NCBI GenBank assembly: GCA_023898605.1
Contig: CP060230.1
Span: 387,697-451,696 of the forward strand
Length of the DNA stretch: 64,000 bases
DNA from: Candidatus Nomurabacteria bacterium
GTDB lineage: Bacteria > Patescibacteriota > Minisyncoccia > Phycocordibacterales > UBA9973
Reading direction: 5' to 3'
The notes beneath the pieces were generated by a model. It worked only from the letters and a program-made list of their open reading frames with translations. It was not told the origin of the DNA and made no database searches. The position numbers and the translations under genes were made by a program. The stretch's first letter is position 1. Every line of letters begins with the position of its first letter. Shown piece after piece: positions 47,579 through 55,159 of this stretch.

Positions 47579-48037
47579 CTACCATTTGCCAATAATATTT
47601 CTTCTGCCCTCGACACACTCTTTTATTCTTCTCATTCCAGCAGGAGAAATATTTTCAGGTAAATTACTAATATCAAACCATTTAGCGTCTTCTAGCTCGT
47701 AGGTTTTTTTGAAACTTTTGTCTAAAACTTTGACTACAAAAATATATACTGTATCCTTTTTTCCCTCTTGTCTAGATAAAAACTCTCCTAATTTATACTC
47801 TACTTTTACAGATATACTTAATTCTTCTTTTATCTCTCTTGCAATACAATCTTCTGGTGTTTCATTTTTTTTTATGTGACCACCGGGCAATGACCAGTGT
47901 TTTGATGCTACATTTTTAACCAAAAGAATTTCTTTATCTTCAAATATAATTATTGCTCTAGACCCATATGTTTTTGGCTTGAAAATTTTCCAGTATATTC
48001 TAGCTATTTTAACCAAAAACCAGTAAACTTTTTTCAT
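47579..48037 (-). CDS. NUDIX hydrolase
   Basis: Nudix box GGHIKKNETPEDCIAREIKEELS. Confidence 0.75.
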   Translation of the reverse strand: MKKVYWFLVKIARIYWKIFKPKTYGSRAIIIFEDKEILLVKNVASKHWSLPGGHIKKNETPEDCIAREIKEELSISVKVEYKLGEFLSRQEGKKDTVYIFVVKVLDKSFKKTYELEDAKWFDISNLPENISPAGMRRIKECVEGRRNIIGKW

Positions 48038-48038
48038 A

Positions 48039-48581
48039 TTATTTCATCATTTTTAATAGTTCATCTAAAACTTCTGGAAATTTATTGAAACCTGCTTTTC
48101 CGCTTAGGTGTCCCCCATTTTCTATAACTATAAATTTGCAATTTAATTCTTCGGAAATTTTCTTACCATCTTCAAAAGGTATGTTTGGATCGTTACTACC
48201 ATGAAAAACGACAAACTTCTCTGAATTGTTTTTTATTTTTGAGAAATCTAGTGGTTCATTATAGAAAGTTCCTAAAGTCCCAGATTTTGGCTTACCAAAC
48301 CTTCCTGAAACCAATATTACTCCTCTTGCTCTCCCTCCTGCTTCTAAATATCTCAATACAGCTCTTGCACCCAAACTATGTCCAATAATATAATTTTCAT
48401 CCTTTGGATCGATGATTTTATTTAGTAAATCTACCCACTCTTTGCAAATAGGGTTATCATCTCCTGGCATCTGAGGATTTTCTACGGCTATATTTTTATT
48501 TTTTAATTCATCAACTAACCAGCCACGCCATGCATGATCTGGTGCTGACCCCAATCCATGTACAACAAAAACTTTTTTCAT
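48039..48581 (-). CDS. alpha/beta serine hydrolase (RBBP9/YdeN family)
   Basis: VVHGLGS followed by the GHSLGA nucleophile elbow; 180 aa. Confidence 0.6.
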   Translation of the reverse strand: MKKVFVVHGLGSAPDHAWRGWLVDELKNKNIAVENPQMPGDDNPICKEWVDLLNKIIDPKDENYIIGHSLGARAVLRYLEAGGRARGVILVSGRFGKPKSGTLGTFYNEPLDFSKIKNNSEKFVVFHGSNDPNIPFEDGKKISEELNCKFIVIENGGHLSGKAGFNKFPEVLDELLKMMK

Positions 48582-48910
48582 ATTAATTTGAATTCTATCA
48601 TTTTTACTTCAGTATTCTCATCGACTTTATCGCCATAGTGACCTTTTTGAATTCTATACATTTCATCAAAATCTTTATACTTTCCAGCTATTTCTTCTTT
48701 TGTCACTTCACCTAACTTTTTAAATTTTAATGAAGTTATTTTTGCTCTAGCAAAAACTTCATCTGTACTTTTGTTTATAAGCTCAAGCTCATCTCCTAGT
48801 TCCAAGTTTTTATCATCAAAAAGCCGCCAAGTACCTGTCTTTTTCCCAGCGAGAATTTTTTCTGATAGTTCACTTGTAAATTTAAGCGATTTCATTTTTA
48901 AATTCTTCAA
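48578..48910 (-). CDS. ASCH domain protein
   Basis: LKFTSELSEKILAGKKTGTWR resembles the ASCH N-terminal signature. Confidence 0.45.
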   Translation of the reverse strand: MKNLKMKSLKFTSELSEKILAGKKTGTWRLFDDKNLELGDELELINKSTDEVFARAKITSLKFKKLGEVTKEEIAGKYKDFDEMYRIQKGHYGDKVDENTEVKMIEFKLI

Positions 48911-49487
48911 AAAGCATGGGGTCAGCCCAGTTTTTTACTGGAACATTTTTTAATAGATATTCTTTTTCTTCTTGATTACCAGAATACACATCAACCGCTT
49001 CACTTAAAACATAAACATCATAACCACGAAAAGTTAGGTCTTGTGCAGTAGACAACACACAACAGTCGAGAGTTAAACCTATCAAGACTATTTTATTTTT
49101 TTCCACTGGTGTTCCAACTGTCTCAATTAACCATTTAGTAAAAGATTCCGGATCTGGATAAGGCAATTCCGGAACTGCATCTTTGTCTCCCCTGCCTTTT
49201 CTTATCCACTCAGGAGAATTCATACTTTTTACCCATATATTTGCGTCCTTTACATCATCAGGTATTTCAGACTCATATCCAAAAGTTCCGGGGTAGCAAA
49301 GATCTCCCGTATCACCCTGCCTTGGTTGTCTGTAATCTGAGATTATTTCATAGATTTTTATATCCTTTTCACGAAGAAATGGAACAAGTTCATTCTTTAT
49401 AAAAGAAACGCTTGGTCGATCTCGAAAAGCTCGACCTTGTGGATCTGTAAAATCTTTTTGTAAATCGATTGATATTATTTTAATCAT
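48882..49487 (-). CDS. isochorismatase-family cysteine hydrolase
   Basis: VLIGLTLDCCVLSTAQDL with the catalytic Cys. Confidence 0.55.
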   Translation of the reverse strand: MIKIISIDLQKDFTDPQGRAFRDRPSVSFIKNELVPFLREKDIKIYEIISDYRQPRQGDTGDLCYPGTFGYESEIPDDVKDANIWVKSMNSPEWIRKGRGDKDAVPELPYPDPESFTKWLIETVGTPVEKNKIVLIGLTLDCCVLSTAQDLTFRGYDVYVLSEAVDVYSGNQEEKEYLLKNVPVKNWADPMLFEEFKNEIA

Positions 49488-49491
49488 AAAT

Positions 49492-52400
49492 TTATTTTAA
49501 GATTATTTCTTCGCCCATAAATTTTATTTCTTTAACTCCAGCAGTTTTCTTCAAATCATCTTCGAATCCTGAAACTGTCTCTTTGTATTTCTCTGGCAGA
49601 GTTAGATTTATCACATCACTAGGAATAAGACCCTTTTCTTTTCGCATGTCTTGTATAACACGAACAAGTTCTCGATATTCCCCTTCTCTCTTTAGTTCTG
49701 GAGTTATGTTCATGTCGAAAGAAACTTCACTAGAAACTTTTACCTCTTTTACATTTAACTCTTCCTTGATCAGGTCTTTTAAGTCTTGAGACACTTCTTC
49801 TTTTACAAAGAATGTTTGAAGTGGTTGTCTTAGTGGTATGTTTGTCTTTTTTCTTATTGAATTACCCTCTGTACATAAATCTCTAACTTTTTGCATATCA
49901 GATATTATTTGTGTATTTACCTTCCTTGCTTCTGGCCAGCTTGTAAGATGAACGGACTCTACATCATTATCAGTCTTCAACCTTTGCCATATATCCTCTG
50001 CACTAAACGGTGCAAACGGAGCCATAAGTTTAGCGAGTGTTTTCAAAACATAATAAAGAGTTCTCTTTGCATCATTATCACCATCTTTTAGTCTGTCTCT
50101 AGAACGTCTAAGGTACCATGTAGAGAGGTCATCAATAAAACTTCTCATTTCTCTTACCGGCTCAAACAATTTGAAGTTGTCCATGTTTTCTGTAGAAGAT
50201 TTTATCAGCTCGTTTAGTTGTGCAAGTATCCACTTATCTAATATATTTTTTGATTCTGACAAATCTCGACCTGCCCCGTATCGAACTTGTTCTGGTACGG
50301 GGTAAAGCTCATAAAACGCTAGCACGTTATAAAGCAAACCAAAGAACTTCCTGTTTAGATCAAGTACTGTTTTTTCATCGAAGTTTTTCGCGTCACCTGG
50401 CTGGTTGACTGAGTACATCCACAGTCTCAATGTATCAACACCATATTTCTCAACCATTTCTATAGGGTCAACCGTGTTTCCGATTGACTTACTCATCTTT
50501 TTACCGTTGGCATCTAGTATAAGCCCGAGACTTATAACATTTCTATAAGCTTTTCCTGTACCCATGATTCCTCCTATTGCATGAAGTGTGTAGAACCAAC
50601 CACGAGTTTGATCTATTCCCTCACTTATAAAGTCTGCTGGATAACCACGCTGTTTTCTAAATAAACCTTTATATGGTTGAAATGTTTTTTCAGAATTTTC
50701 AAATGGATAGTGGTCCTGTGCAAACGGCATAGAACCAGAGTCGAACCATACATCTAGAACTTCTTTTACTCTAGTATATTCTTTGCCCCCTTTCTCCAAA
50801 ACGACACTATCGATAAATGGCTTGTGAAGATCTATTTCTAGATTTTGATTCATTGGCATTTTTACAAAATCCAACTCTCGCACTTCTGAGTTTTCAAACC
50901 TCTTGAAATCTTCTACAAAAACTTTGTGGTCCTCTTTTTGGTAGTCTTCACCGTGTGGAGAAAAAAGCCCTGCATTTACATAGAAAAGCCAAGCTGGGCC
51001 ACCATGCGTCACAAAAAGTATTTTTTTGCCTTTGTATTTTTCTTCACAATCAAGAAGTACTTTTCTAACCCTTTGTCCGACTTCGAGCAAAGATTCGCCA
51101 CCTTCTACTTTTCTGTTGAACCAATCTTTATCACTACCTTCTATTGCATCGTGAAAATCTGACCAGTTCTTGCCGTCGAAAATACCAGGATTTATTTCTT
51201 GTAGTCTTTCGTCTTTTATAAGGGATTCTTTTGGAAGTCCAAGAGTTTCTATAACAATTTTTCCAGTTTCTAGTGTTCTTCTAAATGGAGAAGTTATGAC
51301 TAGATCGATACCAGCCCCATTTAGACTTTGTGCTTTTTTCTTTGTCTCTTCTTTACCTTCTTCTGTTAGTCCGTCTTGGCCCTCTCTTATATAACTCACT
51401 ACCCCACTCTTGTTGCTCTCGGTACCGCCGTGTCTCATCACAAAATATTTGTTGTTTCCCTTTTTTGAAAGTTTTCTAAGTGTAGTGATAGAATCCACGA
51501 CAATCCTATCTCCATCGCTAGACTCCCATATAGGAAGTGGTGTTCCCCAATATCTTTCGCGTGAAATTGCCCAATCTTTTAGACCGCGTAGCCACTCGCC
51601 AAATCTTCCGTCTTTTATATGCTCTGGTTCCCAGTTTATACTCTCGTTTTCTTTTACAAGCTTGTCTCGCAATTTTTCCATGCGTATATACCAAGAATCT
51701 CTCGCATAATATATAAGCGCGGTTTTACAACGCCAACAGTGTGGGTATGAGTGTTCGTATTTTTCTTTTTTGAAAAGTAGGTTTCTTCCCGCAAGGTCTT
51801 TGATTATATCTATCGCAACTTCTTCATCTTTTACAAATCTACCTGTCAGAAAATCCATACCGTCTATGTAGTGACCATCTTCTTTTACTAAGTGAAACTT
51901 TGGAAGACCCACTTTAGTTCCTAGTGCAAAATCATCTTGTCCATACATAACAGCAGTATGAACAATACCTGTTCCATCTTCTGTGTTTACAAAGTCTGCA
52001 GAATATACTTTATATGCTTTTGACTTATCCAAAGATTCTGGAGCTAGATTATTGAAGTATGCATATAGTGGCTCGTATTCTTTCCCAACAAGATCAGAAC
52101 CTTTTATCTTTTCAGAAATTTCTACGTCACCATCTAGAACAGAAAGTCTGTCCTCGGCGAGTATTAGAAAATCATTTTCTAATTTTACTTTTACATAAAA
52201 AATATCTTTTCCTACTGCAAGAGCAATATTTCCAGGAAGAGTCCATGGTGTAGTTGTCCATGCAAGAAAATATGTGTTTTCTTCTCCTACAACTTTGAAT
52301 TTTGCTGTCACAGAAAGATCCTTGTCGTCTTGATAACCCTGCGCAAGTTCATGAGAAGAAAGTGCTGTACCACATCTAGGACACCAAGGTAGAACTTTGT

Positions 52401-52953
52401 AGTCCTTGTAAAGAAGTCCCTTTTTCTCGACAGTACTCAATATATTCCAGACAGACTCCATGTACTGATTCTCATAAGTAACGTATGGATTCTTGGAGTC
52501 GATCCAGTAACCAACTCTTTCTGTAAACTTCTCCCACAAGTCTCTATACTGCCAAACGCTTTCTTTACACTTCTGATTGAACTTCTCTACGCCGTATTCT
52601 TCTATCTCTTTTTTGGAAGTGAGTCCAAGCTCTTTTTCAACTTGAAGCTCAACAGGAAGTCCGTGAGTATCCCAACCACCCTTTCTCCTTACATAAAAAC
52701 CTCTCATTGTTTTATAGCGAGGAATTGCATCCTTGAATGCCCTAGCTTCTAAGTGGTGTATTCCTGGTTTTCCATTTGCAGTTGGTGGACCTTCATAGAA
52801 AACAAACTCTTTTCTCCCCTTCGACATACTCAGGGTCTTTTCAAAAATATCGTTCTCTTTCCAGAACTCTAAAACTTTTTCTTCCTTGTCCGCCATAGCA
52901 GATTTTGCGACGGTGGAGTTTTTTACGTATTGATTTTTTGTATTTTCTTCCAT
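49492..52953 (-). CDS. ileS: isoleucine--tRNA ligase (type 2) with an inserted histidine-phosphatase (PGAM-like) domain
   Basis: PPTANGKPGIHHLEA (HIGH), the TTTPWTLPGN editing domain, KMSKS and close collinearity with type-2 IleRS; the track start (53115) overlaps the T-box terminator, so the true start is downstream, likely ATG 52953 or 52998. Confidence 0.85.
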   Translation of the reverse strand: MEENTKNQYVKNSTVAKSAMADKEEKVLEFWKENDIFEKTLSMSKGRKEFVFYEGPPTANGKPGIHHLEARAFKDAIPRYKTMRGFYVRRKGGWDTHGLPVELQVEKELGLTSKKEIEEYGVEKFNQKCKESVWQYRDLWEKFTERVGYWIDSKNPYVTYENQYMESVWNILSTVEKKGLLYKDYKVLPWCPRCGTALSSHELAQGYQDDKDLSVTAKFKVVGEENTYFLAWTTTPWTLPGNIALAVGKDIFYVKVKLENDFLILAEDRLSVLDGDVEISEKIKGSDLVGKEYEPLYAYFNNLAPESLDKSKAYKVYSADFVNTEDGTGIVHTAVMYGQDDFALGTKVGLPKFHLVKEDGHYIDGMDFLTGRFVKDEEVAIDIIKDLAGRNLLFKKEKYEHSYPHCWRCKTALIYYARDSWYIRMEKLRDKLVKENESINWEPEHIKDGRFGEWLRGLKDWAISRERYWGTPLPIWESSDGDRIVVDSITTLRKLSKKGNNKYFVMRHGGTESNKSGVVSYIREGQDGLTEEGKEETKKKAQSLNGAGIDLVITSPFRRTLETGKIVIETLGLPKESLIKDERLQEINPGIFDGKNWSDFHDAIEGSDKDWFNRKVEGGESLLEVGQRVRKVLLDCEEKYKGKKILFVTHGGPAWLFYVNAGLFSPHGEDYQKEDHKVFVEDFKRFENSEVRELDFVKMPMNQNLEIDLHKPFIDSVVLEKGGKEYTRVKEVLDVWFDSGSMPFAQDHYPFENSEKTFQPYKGLFRKQRGYPADFISEGIDQTRGWFYTLHAIGGIMGTGKAYRNVISLGLILDANGKKMSKSIGNTVDPIEMVEKYGVDTLRLWMYSVNQPGDAKNFDEKTVLDLNRKFFGLLYNVLAFYELYPVPEQVRYGAGRDLSESKNILDKWILAQLNELIKSSTENMDNFKLFEPVREMRSFIDDLSTWYLRRSRDRLKDGDNDAKRTLYYVLKTLAKLMAPFAPFSAEDIWQRLKTDNDVESVHLTSWPEARKVNTQIISDMQKVRDLCTEGNSIRKKTNIPLRQPLQTFFVKEEVSQDLKDLIKEELNVKEVKVSSEVSFDMNITPELKREGEYRELVRVIQDMRKEKGLIPSDVINLTLPEKYKETVSGFEDDLKKTAGVKEIKFMGEEIILK
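50941..51474 (-). other. histidine phosphatase superfamily (branch 1, phosphoglycerate-mutase-like) domain embedded in IleRS
   Basis: VMRHGGTESN (RHGxxxxN), ITSPFRRTLETG and VTHGG motifs in a roughly 180-aa insert between PLPIW and DLHKPFID. Confidence 0.6.
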
Positions 52954-53080
52954 CCCATTAGAGGCAGAACGCGATACATCCTTATTAGAAATTTCCATAT
53001 TATTTTGTATATTATATTTTTTCATAACTTGTTTTATCCGATATAATCCGCGATCGCGGCCTCTAACGGGATCCATAAAA

Positions 53081-53410
53081 TTAAAAACTCGTCCTTGTAC
53101 AACGATATATATCATTGTGTAAGGACGAGTTTCCTCGTGGTACCACCTTAGTTACTTCTCATTTACAGCTATTTTGGGCTTACCCATCCAGTTCTACTCA
53201 CCCGAACATTTGAAATGTTGTGGCTTTCTTCTGAAAGCATCGGAGAGTGATATTCTCCTCTAGCGCTATAGGTAGAGTATATACAATTATTAATCAAAAG
53301 CAAACGCTGACAAAAAAGAAAAATATCCCGCACATGCGAGATATTTTCCTTTGTGTCGACTTGGCCACAGGTATAAGTCAACACTATGACTTACCTCTCC
53401 CTGTTGGCAT
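53081..53410 (-). promoter_or_regulatory. T-box riboswitch leader of ileS with a sigma70-like promoter
   Basis: minus-strand RNA AACUAAGG-UGGUACC-ACGAG-GAAA-CUCGU-CCUU is a canonical T-box antiterminator (7-nt bulge, GNRA loop); competing terminator CUCGUCCUU...AAGGACGAG-UUUUUAAUUUU (53081-53130); promoter TTGACG-16-TATTAT (53444-53417). Confidence 0.85.
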
Positions 53411-53497
53411 ACAAAAATAATATCAAATAGGTTATGCCCGTCAATACAAAAATAAACAAAAACCAATAAAAATAAAAAAAATCAACAGGTGAAGTTT

Positions 53498-55159
53498 TTA
53501 CATAACTTCTGGAGATTTTATACCTAGAAGATAAAGTCCGTTTTTTAATATAAAAGTAGTTTTCTCAGCAATCAAAAGATCGTTTTCAATATCTTGATTT
53601 GATTCGTCTATTATTTTTTTTGATGCATACCATGAATTAAACTCTCTACAAAGAGACAAAAGATAGGTTGTTATGTAGTGCGGTGCCCATTCTTCTATAG
53701 ATCTATTAACTACATGTTCAAAACTTAACATAATCTTTTCTAGGTTAGATATTTTTGCGCCAGAAAGTTTTTCTGACGGTACATGACCAGCTTCTTTTGC
53801 ATTTCGAAGGAGTGACATACTACGCGCGTATGTGTATTGGATATAAGGACCAGAGTCTCCTTCGAAGGAAAGTGATTTGTCTGGATCAAAGTTTATATTT
53901 TTTCCAGAAACAACTCTCAGTATCGCAAACTTGAGAGCAGATATAGCAATGTCTTCTGAACTAGAAGTGTCTTTGCCCAAACTCGCAATGTCTTGAATCA
54001 ATGTTTCTAGTACATCGGATGCAATAGGTACACCGCCCTCTCGAGAAGACATCTTCTTGCCACGAAGCGTCATCCTGCCATGAGTTCTGTGTATTGTTTT
54101 TTCTTTCCAATCTTTGTCTATTTTTCCAGCCGCTGACAAAACAACGTCGAAGTGAGATGTTTGTTCGTGGTCAGTTATAACAACAGAAATATCTGGGTTG
54201 TATTTTTTGAACTTAAGAGAAAGCAGCCCTATATCTTTGGCCTCATATGTTGGATACCCTTCGCTGTTTATAAAAACTCTTGTGTGTAGTCCATCCTCTT
54301 CCCCTTTGTAGATTACTGCACCTTCACTTTCTACAAAAACCTCTGGGTGCTCTAGAACTATTTTCTTACCCTCTTCCCCTGCCTCACTCTCATATATAAA
54401 GTCATCAAAAGTTGAACCGAGTTTCTTTGTTTCGTTTATAAAGTATTCTAGATTTAGATCTTTTCCTTTCTTGTAAGCTTCGTATTCTTCTCCTTCTTCT
54501 TTTTGAAAAATCTTTCTGGTTATTTCTTTTACTTTCTCTTGAACGTTTTCGTTTTCTTCAAAAGCTTTTACCCCGTCGACATAACACTGACCTAGAAAAT
54601 CCAACTTTTCTTTTGTAGAAGAAAGTCTATCTAGATTTTCTACACCCTTTTCTAGTAGCGACCAAACTGCCTTGCCTATACCAATCGAAACATCTGAAGG
54701 AAAAGAAAGTCTTTTTACATCTGCGCCAGAATATTCAGAAAGTCTGACTATAGATTCCCCTATCGCGTTGTTCATGACGTGTCCTATATGGAATGGCTTG
54801 AAAAGGTTTGGACTAGAGTGTTCAACGATTATGGTTTTACCTTTGTGAATATCTGTTTTACCAACACTAGAATCAATAGTAGATATATATTTTTCTATAA
54901 AATCATCTGTAAGACGAAAGTTTATAAATCCAGGTCCTGCGACCTCAATACTTTTTATCATGTCTCCTTTTTCTATTTTTGAAATTATAGAGCTTGCTAG
55001 TTCTGATGGATTTTTACCTAGTTTTTTAGCAGAAACCATCGCTATATTTGTAGTCATTTCTCCATGAGAAAAATCGTCCGTGTATTCCACAGTAGGCTTT
55101 TCCTCTATTCCTAAATCTCTGAGAGCCGAGACCAGCAAGGCTTCCACATCTTTTTTCAT
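53498..55159 (-). CDS. argS: arginine--tRNA ligase
   Basis: PFHIGHVMNNAIGES (HIGH), GPYIQYTYARSMSLLR and KMSSREGG. Confidence 0.85.
   Translation of the reverse strand: MKKDVEALLVSALRDLGIEEKPTVEYTDDFSHGEMTTNIAMVSAKKLGKNPSELASSIISKIEKGDMIKSIEVAGPGFINFRLTDDFIEKYISTIDSSVGKTDIHKGKTIIVEHSSPNLFKPFHIGHVMNNAIGESIVRLSEYSGADVKRLSFPSDVSIGIGKAVWSLLEKGVENLDRLSSTKEKLDFLGQCYVDGVKAFEENENVQEKVKEITRKIFQKEEGEEYEAYKKGKDLNLEYFINETKKLGSTFDDFIYESEAGEEGKKIVLEHPEVFVESEGAVIYKGEEDGLHTRVFINSEGYPTYEAKDIGLLSLKFKKYNPDISVVITDHEQTSHFDVVLSAAGKIDKDWKEKTIHRTHGRMTLRGKKMSSREGGVPIASDVLETLIQDIASLGKDTSSSEDIAISALKFAILRVVSGKNINFDPDKSLSFEGDSGPYIQYTYARSMSLLRNAKEAGHVPSEKLSGAKISNLEKIMLSFEHVVNRSIEEWAPHYITTYLLSLCREFNSWYASKKIIDESNQDIENDLLIAEKTTFILKNGLYLLGIKSPEVM

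What the first reader, a model, noticed from the sequence alone, without database searches (positions are those of the whole stretch)
50941..51474. Isoleucyl-tRNA synthetase carries an embedded histidine-phosphatase (phosphoglycerate-mutase-like) domain
Between the conserved IleRS segments WGTPLPIW and DLHKPFID...VLDVWFDSGS there are about 255 residues instead of the usual 60-80, where the type-2 enzymes have a zinc-binding CxxC module. The extra roughly 180 aa contain VMRHGGTESN (the RHGxxxxN signature), ITSPFRRTLETG and VTHGG. These are the hallmark motifs of histidine phosphatase branch 1. I am not aware of an aaRS with such a fused phosphatase. It could act on a nucleotide or phospho-intermediate or have a regulatory role.
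Basis: partly seen in the sequence, partly recalled or inferred. Interest (0 to 1): 0.7.

Follow-up and report, generated by a model that had tools for sequence, protein, structure and literature searches.

The report
Phosphatase domain nested inside isoleucyl-tRNA synthetase
The isoleucyl-tRNA synthetase of this ultra-small (Patescibacteria/CPR) bacterium really does carry a complete, apparently active histidine-phosphatase domain spliced into its catalytic core. Hundreds of related species share this arrangement, but no paper we could find describes it and its purpose is unknown.

Summary
Observation confirmed and interpretation supported. The 1207-aa ORF at 49492-53115 (-) is a type-2 IleRS (TIGR00392, 890 bits). 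Between WGTPLPIW and DLHKPFID it holds about 200 extra residues that match Pfam His_Phos_1 (aa 558-713, E 1.9e-29).

It is not an assembly chimera. All 120 closest homologues (59-98% identity) have the same architecture. So do 79 of 80 fetched loci, out of 418 matching GTDB species genomes, all Patescibacteria. An independent assembly has the same gene and gene order.

The catalytic residues R561, H562, R613, E640 and H704 are invariant, and dN/dS in the insert is about 0.07.

In other CPR lineages, related IleRS carry the same domain at two further loops, in up to three or four copies. Those loops also hold HAD phosphatases, P-loop kinases, GNATs and a serine hydrolase; some enzymes add a C-terminal HD domain. 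Close relatives of the domain are fused to ArgRS, Sua5/TsaC and ATP sulfurylase.

My reading is a bifunctional enzyme whose phosphatase is probably coupled to the adenylate or tRNA chemistry. The substrate is unknown, and an unrelated "passenger" domain remains a serious rival.

The sequences are in public databases, but I found no paper describing the arrangement. I rate it a new variant of a known kind.

The parts
49492..53115 (-). ileS ORF (1207 aa as listed). The true start is probably M40 (52998), M55 (52953) or M74 (52896).
   Evidence: The 98%-identical P0121 starts at MEISNK (M40), and orthologues align from about M74. TIGR00392 ileS scores 890 bits against a cut-off of 621.
52753..52764 (-). 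Class I signature motif in its non-canonical form, G118-I-H-H121 (GXHH instead of HXGH)
   Evidence: Sequence (HHLEAR begins at aa 120). The orthologue consensus is KPGIHHLEAR. The meaning of GXHH is taken from PMC10485003.
51475..52875 (-). First half of the Rossmann catalytic domain, the CP1 editing domain (WTTTPWTLP, GTGIVHTA) and the connective peptides up to the N-terminal half of the former Zn knuckle (WGTPLPIW...ITTLR)
   Evidence: Pfam tRNA-synt_1 at aa 81-548. Invariant columns. Alignment to 8C8W residues 12-475.
50836..51474 (-). The insertion (aa 548-760): conserved KKxxNKY lead-in, His_Phos_1 domain and return segment
   Evidence: This stretch has only about 10 counterpart residues in PmIleRS2. 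pLDDT is about 90-97 in the full-length model. The insert-only model has pLDDT 88 and pTM 0.88.
50977..51444 (-). Pfam His_Phos_1 (PF00300) match, aa 558-713
   Evidence: E 1.9e-29, 103.1 bits, profile positions 2-156 of 194.
51427..51435 (-). RHG motif: R561, nucleophilic H562, G563
   Evidence: R and H are invariant in 121 orthologues. H is invariant and R nearly so (one K in 222) in site-A copies, and both are invariant in 16 site-B and 64 site-C copies.
51277..51279 (-). R613, the second phosphate-binding arginine (SPFRR)
   Evidence: Invariant in the 121 orthologues and nearly so across all copies.
51196..51198 (-). E640, the probable general acid
   Evidence: Invariant in the 121 orthologues. 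E in 221 of 222 site-A copies.
51004..51006 (-). H704 (VTHGG), the second catalytic histidine
   Evidence: Invariant.
50485..50835 (-). C-terminal half of the former Zn knuckle (DLHKPFID...) and second half of the Rossmann fold (VLDVWFDSGS, DQTRGWFY) up to KMSKS (50485-50499)
49813..50238 (-). Anticodon-binding helical domain (Pfam Anticodon_1, aa 960-1101)
49519..49725 (-). Type-2 C-terminal domain (Pfam DUF5915, aa 1131-1199)

Best explanation
Shown:
- This is the housekeeping type-2 isoleucyl-tRNA synthetase of a Paceibacteria-type (Patescibacteria/CPR) bacterium.
- A complete branch-1 histidine phosphatase domain of about 200 aa is inserted in frame at the tip of the small Zn-knuckle hairpin. 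That hairpin lies just before the second half of the Rossmann fold.
- The insertion is old, shared across this lineage, and under strong purifying selection with every catalytic residue intact.

Inferred:
- The protein is a bifunctional enzyme, an IleRS plus a phosphomonoesterase working through a phospho-His562 intermediate.
- Phosphatase activity itself is what is selected in the IleRS context. It probably acts on a phosphate-bearing nucleotide or tRNA-end species that is made or bound by an adenylate-forming enzyme. Candidates are AMP or pAp-type adenosine phosphates, or a 2'/3'-phosphorylated A76 end that blocks aminoacylation.

My sub-probabilities: real and native 0.98; catalytically active phosphatase about 0.8; functionally coupled to IleRS/tRNA/adenylate chemistry about 0.5; any one named substrate 0.2 or less.
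For: Real and native:
- A single ORF with no GC break.
- All 120 best homologues carry PF00300 together with the IleRS domains.
- 418 GTDB species genomes match. The best 80 are all Patescibacteria, and in 79 of 80 the match lies inside a long ORF, nearly all with at least one IleRS signature motif.
- An independent ENA assembly has the same gene and the same neighbours.
- The order argS-ileS-recO is conserved: argS upstream in 66 of 80 loci, recO downstream in 70 of 80.

IleRS intact:
- TIGR00392 scores above its cut-off.
- The editing and KMSKS motifs are invariant.
- The model superposes on PmIleRS2 and TtIleRS with TM 0.79-0.89.

Phosphatase intact:
- R561, H562, R613, E640 and H704 are invariant in 121 orthologues, although the insert is otherwise less conserved than the core (0.61 against 0.80-0.82).
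- The same five residues are essentially invariant in 222 site-A, 16 site-B and 64 site-C copies.
- dN/dS is 0.07-0.09 in the insert.
- The fold matches small histidine phosphatases.

Coupling (circumstantial):
- Relatives carry the domain at three different IleRS loops in 1 to 3-4 copies.
- A HAD phosphatase occupies site B in an IleRS that lacks His_Phos. An HD phosphohydrolase is appended in others. These are unrelated phosphatase folds in the same host protein.
- P-loop kinases, whose best solved match is the RNA-repair kinase Pnkp1 (weak, E 8e-4), sit at site C.
- Among the best 150 relatives of the insert, 94 are IleRS-linked. Of the five longer proteins without an IleRS part, three are fusions to other enzymes (ArgRS, Sua5/YrdC and ATP sulfurylase) and two are tandem His_Phos. 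All three partners are ATP-to-adenylate-plus-PPi enzymes.
Against: - No biochemical data exist, and no paper was found.
- I could not obtain model coordinates. Whether the phosphatase pocket faces the synthetic site or the tRNA is therefore unknown.
- The nearest characterised relatives act on small metabolites: phosphoserine, glucosyl-3-phosphoglycerate, alpha-ribazole phosphate and a riboflavin intermediate. None acts on RNA ends.
- The same IleRS loops also hold obviously unrelated or selfish domains, a DUF559 endonuclease and an IS200 Y1 transposase. That points to permissive 'landing pads' rather than functional coupling.
- Only three non-IleRS fusion partners were seen.
- The neighbour-joining tree of domain copies was unresolved, so the number of independent insertions is not established.
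Confidence: 0.5

Rival explanations
1. Passenger domain. An autonomous housekeeping phosphatase gene became lodged in a permissive surface loop of a large, essential, always-expressed protein, through constructive neutral evolution in small, streamlined CPR genomes. It keeps its own metabolic substrate, has nothing to do with isoleucylation, and is conserved only because the free-standing copy was lost.
For: - The same three loops, and CP1, also hold unrelated domains: GNAT, Ser_hydrolase, a DUF559 endonuclease and an IS200-like Y1 transposase.
- The nearest characterised folds are small-metabolite phosphatases.
- Free-standing relatives of 190-210 aa exist.
- The insert evolves faster than the core.
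- No second His_Phos gene is present in the 64-kb window.
Against: - The host protein is strikingly specific: 94 of the best 150 relatives are IleRS-linked, and the three other fusion partners are all adenylate-forming enzymes.
- Up to three or four copies occur in one IleRS. That is hard to explain as housekeeping in a reduced genome.
- Non-homologous phosphatases (HAD, HD) occur in the same host protein.
Confidence: 0.35
2. Built-in antidote. The phosphatase acts as a protein- or tRNA-directed 'eraser' that reverses hostile phosphorylation. Examples are HipA-type kinase phosphorylation of a synthetase near the KMSKS loop, or toxin-added (pyro)phosphate on the CCA end. Alternatively it helps inactivate synthetase-directed antibiotics, together with the GNAT and kinase modules seen in relatives.
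For: - All three insertion sites lie within about 350 residues in sequence around the KMSKS motif.
- Partner modules in relatives are the classes used in antibiotic or toxin modification: GNAT and zeta-toxin-like/AAA_33 kinases.
- The enzyme already carries the GXHH motif, which in IleRS2 gives mupirocin hyper-resistance. This hints at antibiotic pressure on this target.
- From my own knowledge: some branch-1 members (SixA, PGAM5, Sts-1) are protein phosphatases.
Against: - Entirely circumstantial. No toxin or kinase gene is linked in the window.
- The SixA model scores below its cut-off, 35 against 74.5 bits.
- The nearest folds are small-molecule phosphatases.
Confidence: 0.1
3. Non-catalytic module. 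The domain is a pseudo-enzyme kept as a structural spacer or an extra tRNA-binding surface. It would take over the role of the degenerate Zn knuckle, much as the leucine-specific domain serves LeuRS.
For: - The Zn ligands were lost in most carriers, including the window.
- The domain is predicted to be rigid and well packed, with pTM 0.82.
Against: - All five catalytic residues are essentially invariant in more than 300 copies, while the rest of the domain varies. That is the signature of retained catalysis.
- 13 orthologues keep both the Zn ligands and the insert.
Confidence: 0.04
4. Artefact: a chimeric metagenome assembly, a frameshifted two-gene fusion, or an intein-like element that is spliced out.
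For: The window and its nearest assembly differ in mosaic patches that include the insert. Some strain mixing in these assemblies is therefore possible.
Against: - The same in-frame architecture recurs in hundreds of independent genomes and assemblies at 40-98% identity.
- There is no GC discontinuity and no stop codon or frameshift.
- Pfam finds no Hint or intein domain, and the junctions lack intein nucleophiles.
Confidence: 0.01

Closest known systems
Type-2 bacterial IleRS, e.g. Priestia megaterium IleRS2 (PDB 8C8U/8C8V/8C8W) and Thermus thermophilus IleRS (1ILE)
   Same: - Best sequence and fold matches: E 5e-243, and TM 0.79-0.89 over the target.
- Same domain order: Rossmann fold, CP1 editing domain, Zn-knuckle hairpin, KMSKS, anticodon-binding domain, DUF5915-type C-terminus.
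- The same GXHH variant of the HIGH motif that was engineered into 8C8W.
   Different: About 200 extra residues forming a histidine phosphatase lie between the two halves of the Zn knuckle. No solved IleRS has them. The Zn-ligand cysteines are lost in the window.
Small branch-1 histidine phosphatases: PspA/iPSP1 (4IJ5), PhoE (1H2E/1EBB), CobC (6E4B, 6NRU), GpgP Rv2419c (4PZ9), riboflavin-pathway HFP (9MMH)
   Same: The RHG...R...E...H catalytic set, a length of about 165-200 aa, and the fold (Foldseek E down to 1.6e-14, TM 0.6-0.75).
   Different: - Only 19-28% identity.
- No NCBIfam equivalog cut-off is reached, so substrate cannot be transferred by homology.
- It is nested inside another enzyme instead of free-standing.
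- It has a subfamily-specific N-x-Y-F-x-x-R-H-G lead-in.
NCBIfam NF040702 'ileS_w_GNAT' (isoleucine--tRNA ligase, N-acetyltransferase domain-containing)
   Same: A curated precedent for an IleRS with a nested enzymatic domain. CPR relatives of the window protein carry GNAT in site B, often together with His_Phos.
   Different: The window protein has no GNAT and scores 328 bits against a cut-off of 1999. No analogous curated model for a His_Phos-containing IleRS turned up in the NCBIfam scan.
Bifunctional RNase H/acid phosphatase (NCBIfam NF005567; from my own knowledge, the Mycobacterium tuberculosis Rv2228c type)
   Same: A CobC-like branch-1 histidine phosphatase fused to a nucleic-acid enzyme. 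The insert matches the phosphatase half of this model at E 2.8e-21.
   Different: That is a terminal fusion to RNase H, not an insertion within a catalytic domain. The score is below the cut-off, 76 against 326 bits.
End-healing enzymes of RNA repair (T4/bacterial Pnkp: P-loop kinase plus phosphatase; the HD domain of the bacterial CCA-adding enzyme). This is an analogy from my own knowledge, not homology.
   Same: Across CPR IleRS variants the inserted domains include phosphatases of three folds (His_Phos, HAD, HD). They also include an AAA_33 kinase whose best solved match is Pnkp1. Together these would make the toolkit for cleaning RNA 3' and 5' ends.
   Different: - The window protein has only the His_Phos module.
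- The kinase match is weak (E 8e-4).
- As far as I know, no histidine-phosphatase-superfamily member acts on RNA ends.
- No ligase is present.

Membership tests
Histidine phosphatase superfamily, branch 1 (Pfam PF00300) | Profile match above Pfam's gathering threshold | tested here: met
   103.1 bits against 21.7, E 1.9e-29, aa 558-713.
Histidine phosphatase superfamily, branch 1 (Pfam PF00300) | Catalytic core: the RHG motif with the nucleophilic His, a second Arg, an acidic proton donor and a second His | tested here: met
   R561, H562, R613, E640 and H704 are present. They are invariant in 121 orthologues and essentially invariant in more than 300 domain copies.
Histidine phosphatase superfamily, branch 1 (Pfam PF00300) | The alpha/beta fold of the superfamily | tested here: met
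   The insert-only AF2 model has pLDDT 88 and pTM 0.88. The top 50 Foldseek PDB hits are all branch-1 members, with best E 1.6e-14.
Histidine phosphatase superfamily, branch 1 (Pfam PF00300) | Phosphatase or mutase turnover through a phospho-histidine intermediate | not testable with these tools
   Needs an enzyme assay with wild type and H562A.
   dPGM_arch 55-57 bits against a cut-off of 225. PRK01295 34-38 against 316. pgm_1 22 against 81.7. The domain is of the short phosphatase type, about 165-200 aa.
Characterised phosphatase subfamilies (CobC, PspA, GpmB, SixA) | NCBIfam equivalog score at or above the curated cut-off | tested here: not met
   CobC 81-86 against 162.9. PspA 56-60 against 350. 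GpmB 51-56 against 261. SixA 35 against 74.5.
Isoleucyl-tRNA synthetase (TIGR00392), type 2 | Equivalog profile above its cut-off | tested here: met
   890.3 bits against 621.4.
Isoleucyl-tRNA synthetase (TIGR00392), type 2 | Class I signature motifs (HIGH-type and KMSKS) and CP1 editing-domain motifs | tested here: met
   GIHH at 118-121, the non-canonical GXHH form known in IleRS2. KMSKS at 873-877. WTTTPWTLP and GTGIVHTA are invariant in orthologues.
Isoleucyl-tRNA synthetase (TIGR00392), type 2 | Type-2 C-terminal organisation and closest similarity to IleRS2 rather than IleRS1 | tested here: met
   DUF5915 at 1131-1199. PmIleRS2 scores E 5e-243, against E 6e-101 for PmIleRS1 and 3e-99 for S. 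aureus IleRS1.
Isoleucyl-tRNA synthetase (TIGR00392), type 2 | CxxC...CxxC zinc knuckle between WGxPxP and DVWFDSG | tested here: not met
   The window has WESSDGDR... and ...LEKGGKEY with no Cys. 13 of 121 orthologues retain CxxC...CxC around the insert. PmIleRS2 has CEGC...CPVC.
Isoleucyl-tRNA synthetase (TIGR00392), type 2 | Isoleucylation of tRNA(Ile) | not testable with these tools
   Needs an aminoacylation assay.
NCBIfam NF040702 ileS_w_GNAT | Score at or above the cut-off, and a nested GNAT domain | tested here: not met
   328 bits against 1999. No acetyltransferase family in the Pfam scan.
Intein or other self-splicing insertion | Hint/intein domain and nucleophilic junction residues | tested here: not met
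   No Hint or intein family in the Pfam scan. The whole insert is accounted for by a His_Phos fold. The junction residues are not Cys, Ser or Thr after HN.

The most novel reading that the evidence does not exclude
In CPR bacteria IleRS, and occasionally ArgRS or TsaC, serves as a scaffold for a modular, lineage-variable 'substrate-conditioning' toolkit. The modules are phosphatases of three unrelated folds (His_Phos, HAD, HD), PNK-like kinases, GNATs and an esterase.

On this reading, the His_Phos module in this window removes a blocking 2'/3'-phosphate or pyrophosphate from the tRNA CCA end, or a pAp-like adenosine phosphate. It does so immediately before aminoacylation. That would make it a synthetase-embedded tRNA-end repair or anti-toxin activity with no described precedent.
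Probability: 0.13. Interest if true: 0.9.

Novelty: new variant of a known kind. Interest (0 to 1): 0.62.

Why it matters
Aminoacyl-tRNA synthetases are among the best-catalogued enzymes. The 2024 AARS Online paper, which includes a table of aaRS domain superfamilies, never mentions a phosphatase. Two recent IleRS evolution and structure papers that I term-searched do not mention one either.

Here a catalytically intact phosphatase is nested inside the catalytic domain of an essential synthetase, and it is conserved across a major branch of the Patescibacteria. Sister lineages carry it at other loops of the same enzyme.

If the phosphatase acts on the adenylate, nucleotide or tRNA end, that would be a new kind of quality control or repair step built into tRNA charging. 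If it is a passenger, the case is a clear example of how extremely reduced genomes pack independent enzymes into permissive loops of essential proteins.

Either answer is directly testable with one recombinant protein. The GXHH motif and the nested GNAT and kinase modules also make these enzymes relevant to natural resistance against IleRS-directed antibiotics.

Tried and rejected
- **Chimeric assembly.** Rejected by recurrence in independent genomes and assemblies and by the flat GC profile.
- **Intein or spliced element.** Rejected: no Hint domain, and the whole insert is a His_Phos fold.
- **True phosphoglycerate mutase or CobC/PspA/SixA orthologue.** Rejected: all equivalog scores are below their cut-offs.
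- **Neighbour-joining tree of 168 domain copies,** to count independent insertions. The tree was star-like with long branches and was uninformative.
- **Locus scan with the 24-sequence alignment A2.** It failed because the alignment was too diverse. I repeated it with the 6-sequence alignment A3.
- **Cassette-like exchange of the insert between strains.** dS in the insert is 0.50, against 0.04-0.08 in the core. However, the divergent tract (about 52180-50560) is wider than the insert, and similar patches occur in argS. This is strain mosaicism or recombination, not a cassette with boundaries at the insert.
- **Second His_Phos gene or a family-I pyrophosphatase signature in the window.** None found. 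This is uninformative for the whole genome.
- **Rfam scan of the window,** looking for a T-box or other RNA near ileS. Nothing reached the gathering threshold.
- **Literature.** Eight of the nine full-text searches, plus term searches within four papers, found nothing on a phosphatase or GNAT domain in IleRS or on aaRS insertions in CPR. The ninth search was used to locate the IleRS2/mupirocin papers.
- **Orientation of the phosphatase pocket relative to the synthetic site.** I could not test this because the tools do not return model coordinates.
Full report
**1. What is in the window**

A single uninterrupted ORF on the minus strand, 49492..53115, encodes 1207 aa.
- WGTPLPIW 523-530
- VMRHGGTESN 559-568
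- ITSPFRRTLETG 607-618
- VTHGG 702-706
- DLHKPFID 762-769
- VLDVWFDSGS 786-795
- KMSKS 873-877

The finding's coordinates, 50941-51474, correspond to aa 548-725. Pfam splits the protein as follows:
- tRNA-synt_1, best stretch 81-548; second stretch coordinates not listed (related tRNA-synt_1g hit at 784-930)
- His_Phos_1 at 558-713 (E 1.9e-29; 103 bits against a gathering score of 21.7)
- Anticodon_1 at 960-1101
- DUF5915 at 1131-1199

NCBIfam calls the whole protein ileS: TIGR00392 scores 890 bits against a cut-off of 621. GC content is flat across the insert.

**2. Where exactly the domain sits**

The closest solved structure is the type-2 IleRS of Priestia megaterium (8C8W and relatives; E 5e-243). 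The alignment runs to ORF residue about 547 (PmIleRS2 residue 475) and resumes at ORF residue about 760 (PmIleRS2 residue 485). About 210 residues therefore replace about 10.

In PmIleRS2 this loop is the tip of a small zinc knuckle (WECEGC ... LTCPVC) that immediately precedes the DVWFDSGS strand of the second half of the Rossmann fold. By order in the chain it corresponds to the last connective-peptide element, CP3 in the nomenclature of PMC11685878. That assignment is my inference.

The phosphatase is inserted into the knuckle and does not replace it. 13 of 121 orthologues still have CxxC...CxC on either side of the insert, while the window's protein and most others have lost the cysteines.

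The full-length AlphaFold2 model is confident (mean pLDDT 88.8, pTM 0.82), with the insert at about 90-97. It superposes on PmIleRS2 and T. thermophilus IleRS with target-normalised TM 0.79-0.89. No solved IleRS contains the extra domain.

**3. Not an artefact, and widespread**

- All 120 best homologues of the full-length protein (59-98% identity, 1104-1334 aa) carry PF00300 together with the IleRS families. Where they have names, these are Candidatus Paceibacterota, Nomurabacteria, Zambryskibacteria, Minisyncoccia or Patescibacteria.
- A scan of one genome per GTDB species found 418 genomes encoding a relative of the insert. The best 80 are all Patescibacteria. In 79 of the 80 the match lies inside one long ORF, and nearly all of these carry at least one IleRS signature motif.
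- An independent ENA assembly (ERZ28660125) contains a 98%-identical gene with the same neighbours.
- The gene order argS-ileS-recO is conserved: argS upstream in 66 of 80 loci, recO downstream in 70 of 80. This fits a housekeeping orthologue rather than an accessory paralogue.

**4. Is the phosphatase alive?**

R561, H562, R613, E640 and H704 are invariant in 121 orthologues. The rest of the insert is clearly less conserved than the synthetase core: mean top-residue frequency is 0.61, against 0.80-0.82.

The same five positions are essentially invariant in every copy I could collect: 222 at this site and 80 at two other sites. Between the window and the independent assembly, dN/dS in the insert is 0.07-0.09.

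The insert-only model (pLDDT 88) is closest to the short phosphatase members of the superfamily:
- phosphoserine phosphatase PspA
- mycobacterial hydrolases and GpgP
- a riboflavin-pathway phosphatase
- CobC
- PhoE
- TIGAR

No equivalog-level NCBIfam model is reached for dPGM, CobC, PspA, GpmB or SixA. The domain is a bona fide, probably active, branch-1 histidine phosphatase of an uncharacterised subfamily. 'Phosphoglycerate-mutase-like' is correct only at superfamily level.

**5. The wider pattern, which changes how the finding reads**

I searched 1.8 billion representative proteins with the insert alone and then mapped the domains. IleRS of other CPR lineages (named hits are Gracilibacteria, Peregrinibacteria and Peribacteria) carry the same domain at three recurrent loops:
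- **Site A**, as here. The RYWGxP-to-DVWFDS distance is 63-65 aa without the insert and 238-263 with it.
- **Site B**, between DVWFDS and KMSKS. The distance is 71-85 aa without and about 255-280 with.
- **Site C**, about 74 aa after KMSKS, at the start of the anticodon-binding domain.

Among 116 relatives of P0293 the combinations were: C only 44, A only 38, BC 6, B only 5, ABC 2, AC 2, no insert 13, and 6 not assignable. One truncated protein has at least three complete tandem copies plus a partial fourth. The BC architecture recurs in six assemblies, including a 1.06-Mb contig.

The same loops also hold other domains in some relatives:
- GNAT acetyltransferases
- AAA_33/zeta-toxin-like P-loop kinases
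- a double HAD phosphatase, in an IleRS that has no His_Phos
- a PF06821 serine hydrolase
- a DUF559 endonuclease and an IS200-type Y1 transposase
- in two Paceibacteria-type enzymes, a C-terminal HD phosphohydrolase

NCBI already curates a model 'ileS_w_GNAT'.

Of the best 150 relatives of the insert, 94 are IleRS-linked and 51 are short free-standing proteins or fragments. Five longer proteins lack an IleRS part. Two of them are tandem His_Phos, and the other three are fusions to ArgRS, Sua5/YrdC (TsaC) and ATP sulfurylase. All three partners convert ATP into an adenylate plus pyrophosphate.

**6. How it most likely works**

Shown: an in-frame, ancient, selected, structurally complete phosphatase inside an intact IleRS.

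Inferred: the polypeptide is bifunctional, and its phosphatase runs the usual phospho-histidine cycle. H562 would be the nucleophile, R561, R613 and H704 would bind the phosphate, and E640 would be the acid.

I lean, at about 0.5, towards the phosphatase being functionally tied to the host's chemistry. The reasons are:
- The domain's relatives are overwhelmingly attached to IleRS and otherwise to adenylate-forming enzymes.
- It occurs at several loops and in several copies.
- Phosphatases of three unrelated folds (His_Phos, HAD, HD) have ended up in the same host protein. That looks like selection for the activity rather than for one gene.

Candidate substrates are adenosine phosphomonoesters (AMP or pAp type) or a phosphorylated A76 end of tRNA. 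None of these has been tested.

The main rival, at about 0.35, is a passenger enzyme lodged in permissive loops. It is supported by the selfish-looking endonuclease and transposase inserts and by the metabolite-type nearest neighbours. An antidote role (about 0.1), a pseudo-enzyme (about 0.04) and an artefact (about 0.01) follow.

I could not obtain model coordinates, so the decisive geometric test remains to be done. That test asks whether the phosphatase pocket faces the synthetic site or the tRNA path.

**7. Novelty**

The sequences are public and are auto-annotated with both domains. Eight of the nine full-text searches (the ninth only located the IleRS2/mupirocin papers), plus term searches inside the AARS Online paper and three recent IleRS structure and evolution papers, found no description of a phosphatase in any aaRS, nor of these CPR insertions.

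I rate it a new variant of a known kind: a synthetase with an accessory catalytic domain. It is real and conserved, its function is unknown, and it would be genuinely surprising to a synthetase specialist. Interest 0.62.

Noticed in passing
window 52753-52764 (-), aa 118-121: The class I signature motif is GIHH (GXHH) rather than HXGH, and the orthologue consensus is the same (KPGIHHLEAR). In IleRS2 this swap raises mupirocin resistance up to about 1000-fold (PMC10485003). These CPR enzymes may therefore be naturally hyper-resistant.
   Followed up: partly
P0293, P0370, P0348, P0275, P0253, P0394-P0509 (relatives, not in the window): IleRS of Gracilibacteria, Peregrinibacteria and Peribacteria carry His_Phos at two further loops (before KMSKS and after KMSKS), in 1 to 3-4 copies. 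Those loops also hold GNAT, AAA_33/zeta-like kinase, double HAD, Ser_hydrolase, a DUF559 endonuclease and an IS200 Y1 transposase. NCBIfam already has a model called 'ileS_w_GNAT'.
   Followed up: partly
P0351, P0296, P0377 (relatives): Close relatives of the insert are fused to ArgRS (C-terminal), to Sua5/YrdC (the TsaC enzyme of t6A synthesis) and to ATP sulfurylase (N-terminal). All three partners are adenylate-forming, pyrophosphate-releasing enzymes.
   Followed up: partly
window 47579-49487 (-): Four small genes sit between ileS and recO: isochorismatase-like, ASCH, PF06821 Ser_hydrolase and NUDIX. recO usually follows ileS more directly. A Ser_hydrolase homologue lies downstream of ileS in 12 of 80 related loci, and the same family is inserted inside IleRS (site B) in P0444.
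   Followed up: partly
window 50110-52180 and 53620-55060, compared with L081: The window and an independent assembly (ERZ28660125) are 100% identical over most of 11.5 kb. They differ in discrete patches inside argS and ileS, with up to 20 differences per 90 nt. dS in the insert is 0.50, against 0.04-0.08 in the core. This is recombination mosaicism or strain mixing in assembly. The tract boundaries do not match the insert.
   Followed up: partly
L006:4465-8547 (Candidatus Nomurabacteria) and P0162: These site-A His_Phos IleRS proteins have an additional C-terminal HD phosphohydrolase domain after DUF5915.
   Followed up: partly
window 52896-53497 (-): The listed ORF starts 39-73 codons upstream of where orthologues and P0121 begin. 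About 380 bp of apparently non-coding sequence separates argS from ileS. No T-box or other Rfam family was detected there.
   Followed up: no
window 1-64000: The Rfam scan at gathering thresholds found nothing in the whole 64 kb: no tRNA, rRNA, riboswitch or leader.
   Followed up: no
window 51410-51709 (+): A 99-aa antisense ORF overlaps the start of the insert. Nothing supports it as a gene, and it is probably spurious.
   Followed up: no
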